Virus record (IMG/VR): IMGVR_UViG_2802429219_000007
Strand: one strand, 5' to 3'
Length of the DNA stretch: 13,878 bases
DNA from: a virus
Lineage: Duplodnaviria > Heunggongvirae > Uroviricota > Caudoviricetes
This document shows, in pieces, positions 539 through 6,830 of this stretch. Below the pieces are notes generated by a model. The model was given only the letters and a program-made list of their open reading frames with translations, made no database searches and was not told the origin of the DNA. A program made the translations under genes and the position numbers. The first letter of the stretch is position 1; each line of letters opens with the position of its first letter.

Positions 539-1228
539 CTACCCATGCTTCCTATATGTCTGCGGCATGCTCCCAATAACCTTACCGAAGATGAACACCC
601 GGTTCATCTCGTCTTTCTCGATCGGGTCCCACGGTGAGTAGCTTTTGTTATCAGAGATGACCAGCAGCTTATCCTTCATCATTTGCAGGCGCTTTACATG
701 GGCTGTGTCGTCGTACAGAAACGCATAGATACCATCACCGTCGAAAGATTTAACTGTGATATCAACGAACAGCAGATCACCTGGTTCGATCGTTCCTGAC
801 ATGCTGTCACCACGCACGTTAATGATGCGGATATTTTCCGCCTTCCTACCATCGAACATATGACGAGCATCGTCAAACGAGTACTCAACCGAGCGTAGAA
901 CTTCTACAAACTCACGGTTGATGACTCCCGGCCCAGCACTGACTTCTATATCAAGAACGTCAATCTTGAAGTATTTGGAATGGCTGACAGTTGATTGTAT
1001 TGGTTGCACTGTACTGTCTGACATATTTCCAACGCCAGAAGATAACCATTCTGCGCGCACACCCAAAGCGTTCGCGATCTCCACGATTTTAGTTGTTTGA
1101 TTAGCTTTCCCTGTTTCGATTTTCTGAATAGCAGCTTGGCTAACCCCGACCAAATCCCCAAGCGCCTTTTGTGTAAGGCCTCGCGCTAATCTGGCTTCTT
1201 TAAGTCTTTCTGAGAGTGTTGTTTTCAT
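539..1228 (-). CDS. cI: CI-type phage repressor: N-terminal HTH (XRE-like) plus C-terminal S24/LexA-type autopeptidase domain
   Basis: Translation MKTTLSERLKEARLARGLTQKALGDLVGVSQAAIQKIE (HTH); Ala-Gly cleavage-site candidate (VSAGPG); GDSM serine motif and downstream Lys (VKRLQ). Start placed at the ATG at 1228, not the upstream in-frame extension; divergent from cro-like gene. Confidence 0.85.
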   Translation of the reverse strand: MKTTLSERLKEARLARGLTQKALGDLVGVSQAAIQKIETGKANQTTKIVEIANALGVRAEWLSSGVGNMSDSTVQPIQSTVSHSKYFKIDVLDIEVSAGPGVINREFVEVLRSVEYSFDDARHMFDGRKAENIRIINVRGDSMSGTIEPGDLLFVDITVKSFDGDGIYAFLYDDTAHVKRLQMMKDKLLVISDNKSYSPWDPIEKDEMNRVFIFGKVIGSMPQTYRKHG

Positions 1229-1234
1229 AGTCCA

Positions 1235-1263
1235 AATGTACAACCAAGGTTTTATTCCATCAA
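1235..1263 (-). promoter_or_regulatory. Candidate pRM-like promoter for cI (-35 TTGATG, 17-bp spacer, -10 TACATT on minus strand); predicts leaderless cI mRNA
   Basis: Read on the minus strand: TTGATG-17 bp-TACATT, with the -10 ending 6 nt before the cI ATG and no Shine-Dalgarno. Operator-like repeat ACAACCAAGGTTTT (1240-1253) lies in the spacer. Confidence 0.4.
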
Positions 1264-1276
1264 ACGAAAATGGTTG

Positions 1277-1305
1277 TTGACTAAAAACAACCATGGTTTT
1301 AATAT
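1277..1305 (+). promoter_or_regulatory. Candidate pR-like promoter for cro (-35 TTGACT, 17-bp spacer, -10 TAATAT) overlapped by operator-like sites
   Basis: TTGACT (1277-1282), 17 bp, TAATAT (1300-1305); SD ACGGAGG precedes the cro ATG at 1333. Sites AAAATGGTTGTT (1267-1278) and ACAACCATGGTTTT (1287-1300, containing palindrome AACCATGGTT) overlap the -35 and the spacer/-10. Confidence 0.5.
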
Positions 1306-1632: not shown

Positions 1633-2172
1633 ATGCAACCACTTACATACCAACAGACTAGCGGATTTAGCCCGACTGCGGTGATAAATCGTTCTCAAAC
1701 AAAACAGGTGCCAGGCCACGAAAAAATCCGTGATGCCGTCCGCGCTTGGTCTGCTGAAGATAATCAGGATGTAGTTGCCGCACTCATTGTGAATGAGTAT
1801 CGAGCACAGGGCGGCGGCACCATCGATTTTCCTGATGATGTCAGTCGTGCACGCCAGAAGCTGTTCCGCTTCCTCGATAACAAATTCGATTCTGAAAAAT
1901 ACCGAAATAACGTGCGTGAACTGACCCCGGCAATTCTGGCGGTACTACCGCTGGAATATCGCGGCCACCTGGTTGAGCAGGATAGCTTCATGGCTCGGCT
2001 GGCTGAAATGGAAAAGGAACTCAGTGAGGCAAAGCAGGCGGTCATTCTCAACGCACCACGCCACCAGAAACTGAAGGAGATGAGTGAAGGCATTGTGTCG
2101 ATGTTTCGAGTGGACCCGGATCTGGCTGGTCCATTGATGGCGATGGTCACCACCATGCTGGGGGCAATATGA
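1633..2172 (+). CDS. YdaT-family (CII-like) regulatory protein
   Basis: 179-aa ORF with SD AAGGAG; segment AALIVNEYRAQGGGTIDFP and C-terminal coiled region resemble YdaT of Rac-type prophages (recalled, not searched); sits in the cII position after cro. Confidence 0.55.
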   Translation: MQPLTYQQTSGFSPTAVINRSQTKQVPGHEKIRDAVRAWSAEDNQDVVAALIVNEYRAQGGGTIDFPDDVSRARQKLFRFLDNKFDSEKYRNNVRELTPAILAVLPLEYRGHLVEQDSFMARLAEMEKELSEAKQAVILNAPRHQKLKEMSEGIVSMFRVDPDLAGPLMAMVTTMLGAI

Positions 2173-2180
2173 CAGGTTCA

Positions 2181-2250
2181 AAAATGGCGAAAGTCGGTCT
2201 GCGGGAACAGAACCGACTTTCAGGTGCAAATCGTAACACACTCATTGCGG
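2181..2250 (-). ncRNA. Predicted oop-like antisense small RNA (about 70 nt) covering the O ribosome-binding site and start codon
   Basis: Minus-strand promoter TTGAAT-17 bp-CATAAT (plus coordinates 2284-2279 and 2261-2256) and a minus-strand terminator: 9-bp stem AAAGTCGGT/ACCGACTTT (2190-2198 / 2212-2220) followed by CGCCAUUUUUG. Same layout as lambda pO/oop. Confidence 0.4.
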
Positions 2251-2258
2251 GAGGAATT

Positions 2259-3188
2259 ATGGCAAACACTGCTGAGATATTCAATTTTCCAGTGCCGGAT
2301 GCGGCACAAAAGGAGCCGCGCGTGGCAGATCTCGATGATGGTTATACGCGCATTGCAAATGAGTTGCTGGAAGCTGTGATGCTGGCCGGATTAACACAGC
2401 ACCAGCTTCTGGTCTTTCTGGCTGTCATGCGCAAAACATATGGCTTTAATAAAAAACTGGATTGGGTTAGCAACGAGCAACTTTCCGAATTAACCGGGAT
2501 ATTGCCGCACAAGTGTTCTGCTGCAAAAAGTGTTCTGGTAAAGCGTGGGATTTTTATTCAGAGCGGGCGGAATACCGGCATTAATAATGTGGTCAGTGAA
2601 TGGTCAACATTACCCGAATCAGGTAAGAAAAATAAAGTTTACCTGAAAGAGGTAAATTTACCTGAATCAGGTAAAAAAAGTTTACCCAAATCAGGTAAAG
2701 GCGTTTACCCGAATCAGGTAAACACAAAAGACAAACTAACAAAAGACAATATAAAACCTTTTTCGTCCGAGAATTCTGGCGAATCCTCTGACCAACCAGA
2801 AAACGATCTTCCTGTGGTGAAACCGGATGCTGCAATTCAGAGCGGCAGCAAGTGGGGGACAGCAGAAGACCTGACCGCCGCAGAGTGGATGTTTGACATG
2901 GTGAAGACCATCGCGCCATCAGCCAGAAAACCGAATTTTGCAGGGTGGGCTAACGATATCCGCCTGATGCGTGAACGTGACGGACGTAACCACCGCGACA
3001 TGTGCGTGCTGTTCCGCTGGGCATGCCAGGACAACTTCTGGTCCGGTAACGTGCTAAGTCCGGCCAAACTCCGCGACAAGTGGACCCAGCTCGAAATCAA
3101 CCGAAACAAGCAACAGGCTGGCGTGACAGCCGGCAAACCAAAACTCGACCTGACGAACACTGACTGGATTTACGGGGTGGAGCTATGA
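2259..3188 (+). CDS. O: Replication initiator protein O (lambda O family), origin-containing
   Basis: N-terminus MANTAEIFNF...VADLDDGYTRIANELLEA resembles lambda O; C-terminus ...TDWIYGVEL is lambda-O-like; start at 2259 (SD GGAGG) preferred over the upstream in-frame ATG at 2169. Stop overlaps the P start (ATGA). Confidence 0.85.
   Translation: MANTAEIFNFPVPDAAQKEPRVADLDDGYTRIANELLEAVMLAGLTQHQLLVFLAVMRKTYGFNKKLDWVSNEQLSELTGILPHKCSAAKSVLVKRGIFIQSGRNTGINNVVSEWSTLPESGKKNKVYLKEVNLPESGKKSLPKSGKGVYPNQVNTKDKLTKDNIKPFSSENSGESSDQPENDLPVVKPDAAIQSGSKWGTAEDLTAAEWMFDMVKTIAPSARKPNFAGWANDIRLMRERDGRNHRDMCVLFRWACQDNFWSGNVLSPAKLRDKWTQLEINRNKQQAGVTAGKPKLDLTNTDWIYGVEL
2610..2721. repeat. Origin iterons inside the O gene: five copies of a 17-bp dyad-symmetric repeat TTACC(C/T)NAA(T/A)(C/G)AGGTAA
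   Basis: Copies at 2610-2626, 2639-2655 (degenerate), 2658-2674, 2682-2698, 2705-2721, immediately followed by an A/T-rich stretch (2722-2765). This is the lambda-type ori architecture; repeats are in-frame coding (LPESGKK-type peptide repeats). Confidence 0.8.
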
Positions 3189-3886
3189 AAAACATCGCCG
3201 CACAGATGGTTAACTTTGACTGTGAGCAGATGCGCCGGATCGCCAACAACATGCCGGAACAGTACGACGAAAAGCCACAGGTACAGCAGGTAGCGCAGAT
3301 CATCAACGGTGTGTTCAGCCAGTTACTGGCAACTTTCCCGGCGAGCCTGGCTAACCGTGACCAGAATGAACTGAACGAAATCCGCCGCCAGTGGGTTCTG
3401 GCTTTCCGGGAAAACGGGATCACCACAATGGAACAGGTTAACGCTGGAATGCGCGTAGCCCGTCGGCAGAATCGACCATTCCTGCCATCACCCGGGCAGT
3501 TTGTCGCCTGGTGCCGGGAAGAAGCATCTGTTAACGCCGGGCTGCCAAACGTCAGCGAGCTGGTTGATATGGTTTACGAGTATTGCCGGAAGCGTGGCCT
3601 GTATCCGGATGCAGAGTCTTATCCGTGGAAATCGAACGCGCATTACTGGTTGGTTACCAACTTGTACCAGAACATGCGGGCCAATGCGCTGACTGACGCG
3701 GAATTACGGCGCAAGGCTGCCGATGAACTGACCTGTATGACAGCGCGAATTAACCGTGGTGAGACGATACCTGAACCAGTAAAACAACTTCCTGTTATGG
3801 GCGGTAGACCTCTAAATCGTGCACAGGCTCTGGCGAAGATCGCAGAAATTAAAGCTAAGTTCGGACTGAAAGGAGCAAGTGTATGA
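3185..3886 (+). CDS. P: Replication protein P (DnaB helicase loader), lambda-P-like
   Basis: 233-aa translation MKNIAAQMVNFD...QYDEKPQVQQVAQIINGVFSQLLATFPASLANRDQNE...AKFGLKGASV is near-identical to lambda P as I recall it. Confidence 0.93.
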   Translation: MKNIAAQMVNFDCEQMRRIANNMPEQYDEKPQVQQVAQIINGVFSQLLATFPASLANRDQNELNEIRRQWVLAFRENGITTMEQVNAGMRVARRQNRPFLPSPGQFVAWCREEASVNAGLPNVSELVDMVYEYCRKRGLYPDAESYPWKSNAHYWLVTNLYQNMRANALTDAELRRKAADELTCMTARINRGETIPEPVKQLPVMGGRPLNRAQALAKIAEIKAKFGLKGASV

Positions 3887-4839: not shown

Positions 4840-6366
4840 ATGAAAAAAGCCATAGCATATATGCGATTTTCATCACCAGGTCAGATGTCTGGTGACTCAT
4901 TAAACCGACAGAGAAGACTTATTGCTGAATGGTTAAAGGTAAATAGTGATTATTATCTTGATACCATAACATATGAAGATTTAGGATTAAGTGCATTCAA
5001 AGGAAAGCATGCACAATCAGGAGCTTTTTCGGAATTTTTAGATGCTATAGAGCATGGTTATATATTGCCAGGAACTACATTGTTAGTTGAAAGTCTGGAC
5101 AGACTTTCAAGAGAAAAAGTCGGTGAAGCGATTGAACGTCTGAAATTGATTTTGAATCACGGTATTGATGTTATAACTCTTTGCGACAATACAGTCTATA
5201 ATATTGACTCTTTGAATGAGCCATATTCATTAATAAAAGCCATACTTATAGCACAAAGGGCAAATGAAGAAAGCGAGATAAAGTCAAGTCGGGTTAAATT
5301 ATCATGGAAGAAAAAACGGCAGGATGCACTGGAATCAGGTACGATTATGACGGCGTCTTGTCCGAGATGGCTCTCCTTAGATGACAAAAGAACGGCTTTT
5401 GTTCCAGACCCCGACAGGGTGAAAACTATTGAGCTAATTTTTAAACTCAGGATGGAAAGGCGCTCATTGAATGCAATAGCCAAGTATTTAAATGATCATG
5501 CTGTAAAGAATTTCTCAGGAAAAGAAAGTGCATGGGGACCTTCTGTAATTGAAAAATTATTAGCGAATAAAGCTCTGATAGGTATATGCGTACCTTCATA
5601 TCGTGCAAGAGGGAAAGGGATAAGTGAAATCGCTGGCTATTATCCCAGAGTCATATCAGATGATTTGTTTTACGCTGTACAGGAAATTCGGTTGGCACCT
5701 TTTGGTATTAGCAATAGTAGCAAGAATCCTATGCTAATAAATCTACTTCGAACAGTTATGAAGTGTGAGGCTTGTGGTAATACCATGATTGTTCATGCGG
5801 TATCTGGAAGTTTGCATGGCTATTATGTTTGTCCGATGAGAAGATTACATCGATGTGACAGGCCATCAATAAAAAGAGATTTGGTTGATTATAATATCAT
5901 TAATGAATTGCTTTTTAATTGTAGCAAAATTCAACCAGTTGAAAACAAGAAAGATGCTAATGAAACTTTAGAGTTAAAAATTATTGAGCTTCAGATGAAA
6001 ATTAATAATTTAATCGTTGCATTGTCTGTCGCGCCTGAAGTTACCGCTATAGCAGAGAAAATAAGACTATTAGATAAGGAATTACGAAGGGCTTCGGTAT
6101 CATTGAAAACTTTGAAGAGTAAAGGTGTAAATTCATTCAGTGATTTTTATGCTATTGACTTAACCAGTAAAAATGGACGAGAGTTATGCCGTACACTTGC
6201 CTATAAAACATTCGAAAAAATCATAATTAATACGGATAATAAAACCTGTGATATCTATTTTATGAATGGCATTGTTTTTAAACACTATCCTTTAATGAAA
6301 GTAATATCCGCCCAGCAGGCGATAAGTGCTCTCAAATATATGGTTGATGGTGAGATTTATTTCTAA
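4840..6366 (+). CDS. ybcK: Large serine recombinase (resolvase/invertase-type N-terminal catalytic domain plus recombinase and zinc-ribbon-like region)
   Basis: 508 aa; N-terminus KKAIAYMRFSSPGQ...SLNRQRRLI with catalytic Ser and Arg residues typical of serine recombinases; Cys-rich cluster (KCEACGN...YYVCP...HRCD); C-terminal coiled coil. Strongly AT-rich by eye. Matches DLP12 YbcK gene order. Confidence 0.8.
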   Translation: MKKAIAYMRFSSPGQMSGDSLNRQRRLIAEWLKVNSDYYLDTITYEDLGLSAFKGKHAQSGAFSEFLDAIEHGYILPGTTLLVESLDRLSREKVGEAIERLKLILNHGIDVITLCDNTVYNIDSLNEPYSLIKAILIAQRANEESEIKSSRVKLSWKKKRQDALESGTIMTASCPRWLSLDDKRTAFVPDPDRVKTIELIFKLRMERRSLNAIAKYLNDHAVKNFSGKESAWGPSVIEKLLANKALIGICVPSYRARGKGISEIAGYYPRVISDDLFYAVQEIRLAPFGISNSSKNPMLINLLRTVMKCEACGNTMIVHAVSGSLHGYYVCPMRRLHRCDRPSIKRDLVDYNIINELLFNCSKIQPVENKKDANETLELKIIELQMKINNLIVALSVAPEVTAIAEKIRLLDKELRRASVSLKTLKSKGVNSFSDFYAIDLTSKNGRELCRTLAYKTFEKIIINTDNKTCDIYFMNGIVFKHYPLMKVISAQQAISALKYMVDGEIYF

Positions 6367-6564
6367 ATAATGATCTCGGATTTTAAGTTATGCTATGGTG
6401 ATAAAGTGCAAGACAGAATTAATTATCTTTGACGAAACTTAATGGGTAATTACTTTGTTTGCTCCCACAAGCGAGTTTTGTACGGCTGTATTGGGGTAGT
6501 AAATGAGCTATACAATCTTAATCATTTGTTAGGTGAGAACTCTTGGTCGCAGATTCAAATACTG

Positions 6565-6614
6565 AAAATACGTGACAAATTATTATGAGCAAAATGGTGT
6601 ATGTCACGTATTTT
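6565..6614. repeat. Perfect 13-bp inverted repeat AAAATACGTGACA / TGTCACGTATTTT separated by 24 bp
   Basis: Arms at 6565-6577 and 6602-6614, about 200 bp downstream of the serine recombinase gene, in an AT-rich intergenic region. Confidence 0.6.
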
Positions 6615-6747
6615 GAATGATAGGTTAAAAAATAACACCGACTTTCGTAGGTATTACTAATAATAAAGCAGAGTTTTTAGATAGTATCAATGTGCTTTGT
6701 GTATATTGTGGCAAATAATTGGGTTGGGGGTACAATTGTGATTGCTT

Positions 6748-6777
6748 TTGCATAAAAATTGCGCCTTTATGCATAAT
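6748..6777 (+). promoter_or_regulatory. Candidate sigma70 promoter for ybcL (TTGCAT, 18 bp, CATAAT) embedded in an 8-bp inverted repeat
   Basis: TTGCAT 6748-6753, CATAAT 6772-6777; inverted repeat TGCATAAA (6749-6756) / TTTATGCA (6766-6773) spans the spacer. ybcL ATG is at 6831. Confidence 0.35.
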
Positions 6778-6830
6778 GAGATAAAGGAATATCAAATAAA
6801 ATAACGATAGGTCATAACAAAGAGGTTTTT

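What the first reader, a model, noticed from the sequence alone, without database searches (positions are those of the whole stretch)
2181..2284. Predicted oop-like antisense RNA targeting the O gene translation start
On the minus strand there is a near-consensus promoter (TTGAAT-17 bp-CATAAT) lying within the first codons of O. About 70 nt downstream (leftward) is a 9-bp hairpin followed by CGCCAUUUUUG. The predicted transcript is antisense to the O Shine-Dalgarno and start codon and to the YdaT-like/O junction. Lambda oop is antisense to the cII 3-prime end; here the geometry would target replication-initiator translation instead, a potentially different regulatory logic.
Basis: seen in the sequence. 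Interest (0 to 1): 0.55.

Follow-up and report, generated by a model that had tools for sequence, protein, structure and literature searches.

The report
Lambda-type pO/oop antisense RNA cassette
This is the counterpart, in a very common E. coli lambdoid prophage, of phage lambda's small leftward "oop" RNA and its promoter pO. It is a known kind of element, and its one unusual trait is that it stops before reaching the upstream regulator gene instead of overlapping it.

Summary
The sequence features are real. TTGAAT-17-CATAAT (2284-2256, minus strand) carries an extended -10 TG. A strong hairpin (2189-2221) lies about 27 nt downstream of the predicted start and is followed by GCCAUUUUU.

The promoter matches lambda pO (TTGAGT-17-CATAAT) position for position. 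In both phages the -10 is the reverse complement of ATT+ATG of O, and the -35 lies in O codons 7-9. By homology the RNA starts at G2248, immediately 5' of the Shine-Dalgarno. The transcript is therefore not antisense to the SD or the start codon, and its geometry at the O end is the same as in lambda.

The hairpin is conserved in 26 distinct relatives. 98.9% of cells are paired and 6 of 14 pairs show compensatory changes. G·U pairs appear almost only when it is read as minus-strand RNA (48 cells against 1).

Two things differ from lambda. The RNA ends at least 8 nt beyond the stop codon of the YdaT-like (CII-analogue) gene, so there is no coding overlap. The U-tract is interrupted, so termination is probably weak.

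The same cassette also precedes first genes unrelated to O in related phages.

Verdict: an unannotated but ordinary pO/oop homologue, and a new member of a known kind. The claim that it targets O translation by a different logic is not supported.

The parts
2279..2284 (-). -35 hexamer TTGAAT of the pO-like promoter, inside O codons 7-9 (ATA TTC AAT)
   Evidence: It aligns with lambda pO TTGAGT. TTGA is invariant in the 7 aligned representative sequences. The codon before Asn is always NTC in lineages that have the cassette.
2256..2264 (-). Extended -10 TGcCATAAT. CAT is the complement of the O start codon and TG comes from codon 2 (GCA).
   Evidence: TG flag. Lambda has TGtCATAAT at the same place. 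TGnCATA(A/C)T is invariant in alignment A3. Codon 2 is NCA even in front of non-homologous first genes.
2248..2248 (-). Predicted transcription start (G), 8 nt after the last base of the -10 as in lambda oop
   Evidence: Inference from alignment with lambda. G is invariant at this column in A3. Not measured.
2181..2248 (-). Predicted oop-like RNA of about 60-68 nt. The 3' end is uncertain, between about 2190 and 2180.
   Evidence: Covariance model R1 built on relatives finds a single copy in the window, at 2168-2248 on the minus strand (90.7 bits).
2189..2221 (-). Conserved hairpin of 14 pairs with a 1-nt bulge and loop UCCC. Presumed tO-like terminator and antisense kissing hairpin.
   Evidence: Hairpin centroid energy -20.1 kcal/mol. 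RNAalifold predicts the same helix. 98.9% of cells are paired and 6 of 14 pairs have double changes in 26 sequences. There are 48 G·U cells on the minus reading against 1 on the plus reading.
2180..2188 (-). Tail GCCAUUUUU. Together with the UUUC of the stem it forms an interrupted U-tract, UUUCGCCAUUUUU.
   Evidence: CGCC and the following U's are nearly invariant in types 1 and 2. The terminator score is poor, -21 against +30 for lambda tO.
2249..2261 (+). O ribosome-binding site GGGAGG (2249-2254) and start codon ATG (2259-2261)
   Evidence: The N-terminus MANTAEIFNF resembles lambda O MTNTAKILNF. Relatives have an in-frame stop 24 nt upstream of this ATG.
2259..3188 (+). Replication initiator O (309 aa), with five ori iterons at 2610-2726
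   Evidence: Pfam Phage_rep_O, 1e-33. Iterons.
1633..2172 (+). YdaT-family gene (179 aa), the CII-analogue position. Its stop codon is at 2170-2172.
   Evidence: Pfam YdaT_toxin, 8e-30. YdaT is described as a functional equivalent of CII in PMC9986795.

Best explanation
This is the pO/oop cassette of a YdaT-type lambdoid (Bievrevirus-like) prophage.

Proposed mechanism:
1. A sigma-70 promoter with an extended -10 (TGcCATAAT) is built on the O start codon. It fires leftward, against the pR early-right transcript, and starts at about G2248.
2. The RNA is about 60-68 nt long. It is made of a short 5' segment and a conserved 14-bp hairpin (2189-2221).
3. It stops or pauses at the interrupted U-tract UUUCGCCAUUUUU, just short of the stop codon of the YdaT-like (CII-analogue) gene.
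4. The RNA is perfectly complementary to the 86-nt ydaT-like/O spacer of the pR mRNA.
5. By analogy with lambda oop, it most likely pairs with that mRNA through the complementary hairpin loops. RNase III then cleaves the duplex, and the upstream (ydaT-like) part of the message becomes open to 3'-exonucleases.
6. In parallel, firing of the promoter itself may interfere with convergent pR transcription entering O/ori.

Shown here: the promoter homology, the conservation of the hairpin as a minus-strand RNA structure, and the absence of overlap with either coding sequence.

Inferred: the actual start site, termination, and every downstream regulatory step.
For: - Alignment with lambda: TTGAGT-17-CATAAT-7 nt-G against TTGAAT-17-CATAAT-7 nt-G, both on the O ATG.
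- The lambda numbers close. A 77-nt RNA (PMC12197685) with 52 nt in cII (PMC5869508) gives a 5' end at 38675. That is the G seen, using the coordinates.
- TTGA, TGnCATA(A/C)T and the +1 G are invariant in the 7 aligned sequences, whose O proteins are as little as 39% identical.
- Codon 2 is GCA, ACA or TCA, so the amino acid varies while CA is kept. The codon before Asn is TTC, CTC or ATC.
- O-type genes that lack an intergenic spacer (Pantoea, Erwinia, Serratia) use AGT at codon 2 and have no -10 and no hairpin.
- Hairpin: 98.9% of cells paired and 6 of 14 pairs with compensatory changes. No shuffle reached the observed value for four of the five measures. RNAalifold gives the same helix.
- Strand test: 48 G·U cells at 7 pair positions on the minus reading against 1 on the plus reading. 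The minus-strand hairpin is always the more stable.
- Other lineages with the same promoter carry canonical minus-strand terminators 45-70 nt downstream (lambda, E. albertii, L123/L129, Alteromonadaceae).
- The cassette keeps the same architecture in front of non-O first genes.
Against: - There are no transcript data, so the start and end are predictions.
- The promoter match alone is at chance level in a consensus scan.
- The U-tract is interrupted by CGCC. In the commonest variant it reads AUUUCUG. A d'Aubenton-Carafa-type score is -21 to -24, against +30 for lambda tO (formula recalled from memory). Termination may therefore be inefficient, or the 3' end may form some other way.
- The N-terminal peptide NTAE(I/V)xNF is also conserved in lineages without the promoter. 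Part of the -35 conservation is therefore explained by the protein.
- The RNA overlaps no coding sequence, so the cII-type antisense effect is an extrapolation.
- In lambda, oop did not change O-P mRNA stability (PMC3985674).
Confidence: 0.8

Rival explanations
1. The promoter-like hexamers are a by-product of the conserved O N-terminal codons and the RBS, and no leftward RNA is made. The hairpin works in the rightward pR mRNA, for example as an RNase III or processing site, or as a 3' stabiliser of the ydaT-like message.
For: The peptide MxNTAE(I/V)xNF is conserved even where there is no -10. The promoter score alone is at chance level. The plus-strand hairpin is also stable in the window itself (-18.8 kcal/mol).
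Against: G·U asymmetry is 48 cells to 1 in favour of the minus strand. Plus-strand pairing falls to 86%, and plus-strand energies are as weak as -10 to -14 kcal/mol in the commonest variants. The TG and the A(T/G)T before the ATG are kept in front of non-homologous genes. Lineages with the promoter always have a minus-strand hairpin with a U-rich tail.
Confidence: 0.1
2. The hairpin is a rightward intrinsic terminator or attenuator (tR1-like) that limits pR transcription into O and P.
For: It sits between the regulator gene and the replication genes. The stem is flanked by A's upstream and UUU downstream, so it looks weakly bidirectional.
Against: On the plus strand only UUUCAGGUG follows the stem. 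The covariation and G·U pattern favour the minus strand. Related lineages carry unambiguous minus-strand terminators at this place.
Confidence: 0.05
3. The inverted repeat is a DNA binding site for a phage or host protein (operator or replication-related site), not an RNA element.
For: It is a near-perfect palindrome at a regulatory junction.
Against: The arms change by compensatory substitutions and the loop and internal bulge vary, while a DNA site would keep its sequence. The strand-asymmetric G·U pattern is not expected for DNA. It matches neither the YdaT site TTGATTN6AATCAA nor the O iterons.
Confidence: 0.03

Closest known systems
Phage lambda pO promoter and OOP RNA with its tO terminator
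   Same: - A leftward promoter whose -10 (CATAAT, with TG upstream) is the complement of ATT+ATG of O, and whose -35 (TTGAnT) lies in O codons 7-9.
- +1 G located 8 nt after the last base of the -10, just 5' of the SD.
- A short RNA ending in a GC-rich hairpin.
- Position between the CII-type regulator gene and O, about 350 nt upstream of the ori iterons.

   Different: - Apart from the promoter, the window and lambda share no direct sequence similarity in the transcribed part. Homology is only traceable through intermediate types.
- The predicted RNA is about 60-68 nt, against 77 nt in lambda.
- It ends outside the upstream gene, whereas lambda oop overlaps 52 nt of cII.
- The upstream gene is YdaT-family, not lambda CII.
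- The U-tract is interrupted, against U6 in lambda.
OOP(BTP1) of Salmonella prophage BTP1, detected by transcriptomics (PMC7067206)
   Same: A leftward small RNA at the cII/replication-gene junction of a lambdoid prophage. It shows that oop-type RNAs exist beyond lambda.
   Different: The BTP1 RNA is reported to be antisense to, and to overlap, the 3' end of cII. No sequence comparison was made here.
The dual pR/pO promoter system of lambda replication control (Olszewski et al. 2014, PMC3985674)
   Same: A pO-type promoter convergent with pR, immediately upstream of an O gene that contains the origin. This offers a role that does not depend on what the RNA pairs with.
   Different: Not tested for this phage. 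The DnaA boxes reported near lambda pO were not looked for here.

Membership tests
lambda pO/oop cassette | Leftward sigma-70 promoter overlapping the start of the first replication gene, with the -10 on the ATG and the -35 about 20 nt inside the gene | tested here: met
   TTGAAT-17-TGcCATAAT at 2284-2256 aligns column for column with lambda TTGAGT-17-TGtCATAAT.
lambda pO/oop cassette | Transcript start about 11 nt upstream of the O ATG, just 5' of the SD | not testable with these tools
   A G is conserved at the homologous position (2248; invariant in A3). The actual start needs 5'-end mapping.
lambda pO/oop cassette | Short RNA ended by an intrinsic terminator (tO: GC-rich hairpin followed by a U run) | tested here: inconclusive
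   The hairpin is strong and conserved as minus-strand RNA. The tail UUUCGCCAUUUUU is interrupted and scores -21 against +30 for lambda tO.
lambda pO/oop cassette | [quoted passage not shown] | tested here: not met
   The U run ends at 2180 and the YdaT-like stop codon is at 2170-2172, so there is no coding overlap unless the terminator is read through. The same holds for all type 1 and type 2 relatives.
lambda pO/oop cassette | Sequence homology of the transcribed region to lambda oop | tested here: inconclusive
   Window against lambda shows no clear similarity beyond the promoter. The SEN34/Klebsiella type shares about 23 of 33 positions (counted by hand from the alignment) with the first 33 nt of lambda oop and carries the window-type hairpin. 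L102 (Serratia) combines that 5' part with a lambda-like tO loop. Homology is therefore indirect and mosaic.
lambda pO/oop cassette | RNase III-dependent cleavage of the cII-O mRNA, leading to less CII | not testable with these tools
   Needs rnc mutants and RNA or protein measurements.
Rfam STnc450 (RF02051) | Score at or above the gathering threshold (37 bits) | tested here: not met
   16.1 bits, E = 1.1, at 2182-2249 on the minus strand. There were no hits in 12 related loci. Treated as a chance resemblance.

The most novel reading that the evidence does not exclude
The pO/oop cassette is a self-contained junction module. It is kept between the immunity region and the replication region whatever genes flank it. 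Upstream it can have a YdaT-like gene, a 73-aa CII-family gene or a 106-aa DNA-binding protein gene. Downstream it can have O, a ClpX-zinc-finger protein, a ParB-HTH protein or a DUF2740-like protein. In this large lineage it overlaps no coding sequence. That would mean the conserved job of pO/oop is not antisense control of cII. It would instead be something tied to the junction itself: interference with incoming pR transcription, licensing of the origin, or cleavage that uncouples regulator mRNA from replication mRNA.
Probability: 0.3. Interest if true: 0.5.

Novelty: new member of a known kind. Interest (0 to 1): 0.3.

Why it matters
The region is present at 90% identity or more in 2285 of 5426 complete E. 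coli genomes. It is annotated nowhere as an RNA. Rfam has no oop family, since even lambda oop gives no hit.

Recognising it does three things:
- It corrects the O start used in public records.
- It adds a likely small RNA to a very common prophage.
- It gives a natural test of what pO/oop is for. Here the cII-overlap explanation cannot apply in its classic form, yet the promoter and hairpin are kept under selection.

This refines lambda-type regulation. It is not a new principle.

Tried and rejected
- Rfam at gathering thresholds found nothing in the window.
- A permissive Rfam scan gave a weak STnc450 match exactly on the predicted RNA. It was not reproduced in 12 relatives. In EDL933 that sRNA is listed at a single position of its own, 5,326,800. 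The match was rejected as chance.
- The IMG/VR scan with the O N-terminus returned only relatives 98-100% identical at the protein level. They were useful for micro-variation but not for diversity. The GTDB scan supplied the diversity.
- Many GTDB hits at 46% identity in unlikely taxa carry a region identical to lambda (14 loci grouped with lambda). They are probably lambda contamination, which was not verified. They were counted once, as lambda.
- I checked whether the long ORF from ATG 2169 (used in public annotation) is real. It was rejected because relatives have an in-frame stop 24 nt upstream of the MANTAE start.
- I checked whether the -35 sequence TTGATT seen in relatives reflects the YdaT operator TTGATTN6AATCAA. 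There is no such palindrome at pO in the window.
- A full-text search for the hairpin sequence found no paper. The Perceval/LF82 paper does not mention oop.
- DnaA boxes near pO were not searched.

Full report
**Context.** The window is the early-right region of a lambdoid phage. It is 97-98% identical to Escherichia phages PhiR34_1, Perceval and 4A7 (Bievrevirus). The genes are:
- a CI-like repressor, 539-1294 (minus strand);
- a YdaS/Cro-like gene, 1333-1563;
- a YdaT-family gene, 1633-2172 (Pfam PF06254, 8e-30);
- O, 2259-3188 (PF04492);
- P, 3185-3886 (PF06992).

Five iterons (TTACCYRAATCAGGTAA) lie inside O at 2610-2726. YdaT has been described as the functional equivalent of lambda CII (PMC9986795).

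**The observation.** On the minus strand the sequence reads TTGAAT (2284-2279), a 17-nt spacer, then CATAAT (2261-2256), with TG two bases before the -10.
- CATAAT is the complement of ATT+ATG, so the O start codon (2259-2261) lies inside the -10.
- The -35 is the complement of parts of codons 7-9 (ATA TTC AAT).
- Downstream, the arms AAAGTCGGT and ACCGACTTT extend to a 14-pair hairpin with one bulge (2189-2221).
- The hairpin's centroid energy is -20.1 kcal/mol. The 74-nt stretch has an MFE of -24.6 kcal/mol, z = -3.9, and none of 200 shuffles folds as well.
- The hairpin is followed by GCCAUUUUUG.

A consensus scan alone finds about as many promoter-like sites as shuffled sequence does (10 against 8.1). 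The argument therefore rests on comparison with relatives, not on the hexamers.

**Comparison with lambda.** The lambda minus strand reads TTGAGT, 17 nt, (TGt)CATAAT, GACTCCT, then GUUGAUAGAUCC....
- OOP is 77 nt long (PMC12197685) and 52 of those nucleotides lie in cII (PMC5869508).
- With cII at 38360-38653 and O starting at 38686, the 5' end falls at 38675. That is the G located 8 nt after the last base of CATAAT.
- The window reads TTGAAT, 17 nt, (TGc)CATAAT, TCCTCCC, then GCAAUGAG....

The two promoters therefore coincide column for column, and the homologous start is G2248. The SD GGGAGG (2249-2254) lies between the -10 and +1.

The predicted RNA therefore contains nothing complementary to the SD or the ATG. 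It begins at the base that abuts the SD, exactly as in lambda.

**Is the promoter under selection?** In an alignment of seven representative sequences whose O proteins are as little as 39% identical, three features are invariant: TTGA, TGnCATA(A/C)T and the +1 G.
- Codon 2 is GCA, ACA or TCA. The amino acid changes but the CA that supplies the TG is kept.
- The codon before Asn is TTC, CTC or ATC.
- O-type genes from Pantoea, Erwinia and Serratia follow the upstream gene without a spacer. They keep the peptide MSNTAEIINF but use AGT at codon 2, have no -10, and have no hairpin.

Part of the -35 conservation is thus explained by the protein. The TG and the three bases before the ATG are not.

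**The hairpin.** Twenty-six distinct sequences were aligned, from E. coli, Salmonella, Klebsiella, Enterobacter and Trabulsiella.
- 98.9% of cells form standard pairs. This falls to 40-44% when the 3' partners are slid by 1-3 columns.
- 6 of 14 pairs have changes on both sides.
- No shuffle reached the observed value for four of the five measures.
- RNAalifold predicts the same helix independently.

The strand can be told from the wobble pairs. Read as minus-strand RNA there are 48 G·U cells at seven pair positions. One of these is the pathway U-A, U·G, C-G at a single pair. Read as plus-strand RNA those cells become A·C mismatches and only one G·U cell appears. Pairing drops to 86% on the plus reading. 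The minus-strand hairpin is more stable in every sequence. This favours a leftward RNA over a structure in the pR mRNA or a DNA site.

**Termination.** The tail is UUUCGCCAUUUUU, and UUUCGCCAUUUCU in the commonest variant.
- A d'Aubenton-Carafa-type score is -21 to -24 here. The formula was recalled from memory.
- For comparison, lambda tO scores +30, an E. albertii lambda-like locus +41 and L123 +29.
- Other lineages with the same promoter have canonical minus-strand terminators 45-70 nt from the predicted start.

The window type may therefore terminate inefficiently, and the 3' end (about 2180-2190) is uncertain. CGCC is nearly invariant for reasons I cannot explain.

**What differs from lambda.**
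- The U run ends at 2180 and the YdaT-like stop codon is at 2170-2172. The RNA therefore overlaps no coding sequence. The same is true for all type 1 and type 2 relatives.
- The homology is mosaic. The SEN34/Klebsiella type shares about 23 of 33 positions (counted by hand) with the first 33 nt of lambda oop, yet carries the window-type hairpin.
- A covariance model built from these RNAs finds one copy in the window, at 2168-2248 on the minus strand (90.7 bits). It also finds the same cassette in front of first genes unrelated to O:
  - ClpX-type zinc-finger proteins of 62-64 aa (L008 and, weakly, L102);
  - ParB-HTH proteins of 265-266 aa (L120, L093);
  - a 48-aa protein with a weak, below-threshold DUF2740 match (phage CobraSix).
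- In most of those loci the -10 again covers the ATG and codon 2 is again NCA.
- The upstream gene also varies: YdaT-like, a 73-aa CII-family gene, or a 106-aa DNA-binding protein gene.

The cassette is a feature of the immunity/replication junction. It is not specific to O.

**Most likely mechanism.** A leftward RNA of about 60-68 nt is made from a pO-type promoter. It is fully complementary to the ydaT-like/O spacer of the pR transcript.

By analogy with lambda, it would pair through the complementary hairpin loops. RNase III would then cleave the duplex, which uncouples and destabilises the upstream regulator message. This is inference.

A second, RNA-independent role is convergent-promoter interference with pR, as proposed for lambda (PMC3985674).

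An effect on O translation is not excluded, because the duplex would end at the SD. It would not be new, however. In lambda, a pO mutation raised O only slightly, and oop did not alter O-P mRNA stability.

**Novelty.** OOP-type RNAs are described for lambda, Stx phages and BTP1. I found no description of this one. Rfam has no oop model. The region is in 42% of complete E. coli genomes.

This is a new member of a known kind. It has one noteworthy twist, the lack of coding overlap with a weak terminator, and one general observation, that the cassette is independent of its flanking genes.

Noticed in passing
window 2169-2258: Public records (for example Perceval, and the PhiR phages) start O at ATG 2169, giving 339 aa and an ATGA overlap with the ydaT-like stop. 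Relatives have an in-frame stop 24 nt upstream of the conserved MANTAE start, and GGGAGG precedes ATG 2259. The real start is therefore 2259 (309 aa). The 90-nt 'extension' is the oop-like spacer.
   Followed up: yes
window 8222-8239 (and hairpin 8255-8283): There is a perfect match to the published YdaT operator TTGATTN6AATCAA (TTGATTTTGGGAAATCAA). It lies in the gap between an AraC-family gene (7392-8189) and a NinB-like gene (8404-8859). It is followed by the hairpin GTCACCGGAG...CTCCGGTGAC. It could be a YdaT-controlled site analogous to lambda paQ or pI.
   Followed up: partly
window 2610-2726: Five iterons, TTACCYRAATCAGGTAA, spaced 19-29 bp apart inside O. They form the origin, about 350 nt downstream of the pO-like promoter, as in lambda.
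   Followed up: partly
L007 733-812, L008 732-811, L120 11-90, L093 14-93, L102 592-676: The same promoter-and-hairpin cassette sits in front of non-O first genes: ClpX zinc-finger proteins, ParB-HTH proteins and a protein with a weak DUF2740 match. In L008 the public record annotates a minus-strand hypothetical ORF (824-979) where a plus-strand 62-aa ClpX-zinc-finger ORF starting at 821 fits better.
   Followed up: partly
window 2186-2189 and relatives (columns 60-63 of A5): The tetranucleotide CGCC between the stem and the U run is nearly invariant across type 1 and type 2 cassettes, although it interrupts the U-tract. No explanation was found.
   Followed up: no
window 4840-13186: The region to the right of the replication genes carries cargo-like genes: a large serine recombinase (4840-6366), a PEBP-family protein (6831-7382), two AraC-family regulators (7392-8189 and 12446-13186), a lipocalin (10427-10951, minus strand) and a DUF1722/2-thiouracil desulfurase-like protein (11282-12103).
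   Followed up: no
window 1270-1294: A 9-bp inverted repeat, ATGGTTGTT-GACTAAA-AACAACCAT, overlaps the CI-like start and a TTGACT-17-TAATAT promoter-like site. It is probably an operator/pR region.
   Followed up: no
L126, L128, L130-L141 (GTDB contigs from Bradyrhizobium, Pseudomonas, Neobacillus and others): O-gene loci in phylogenetically implausible genomes have an oop/O-start region identical to lambda, often on contigs of about 48 kb or on very short contigs. They look like lambda DNA contamination of the assemblies.
   Followed up: no
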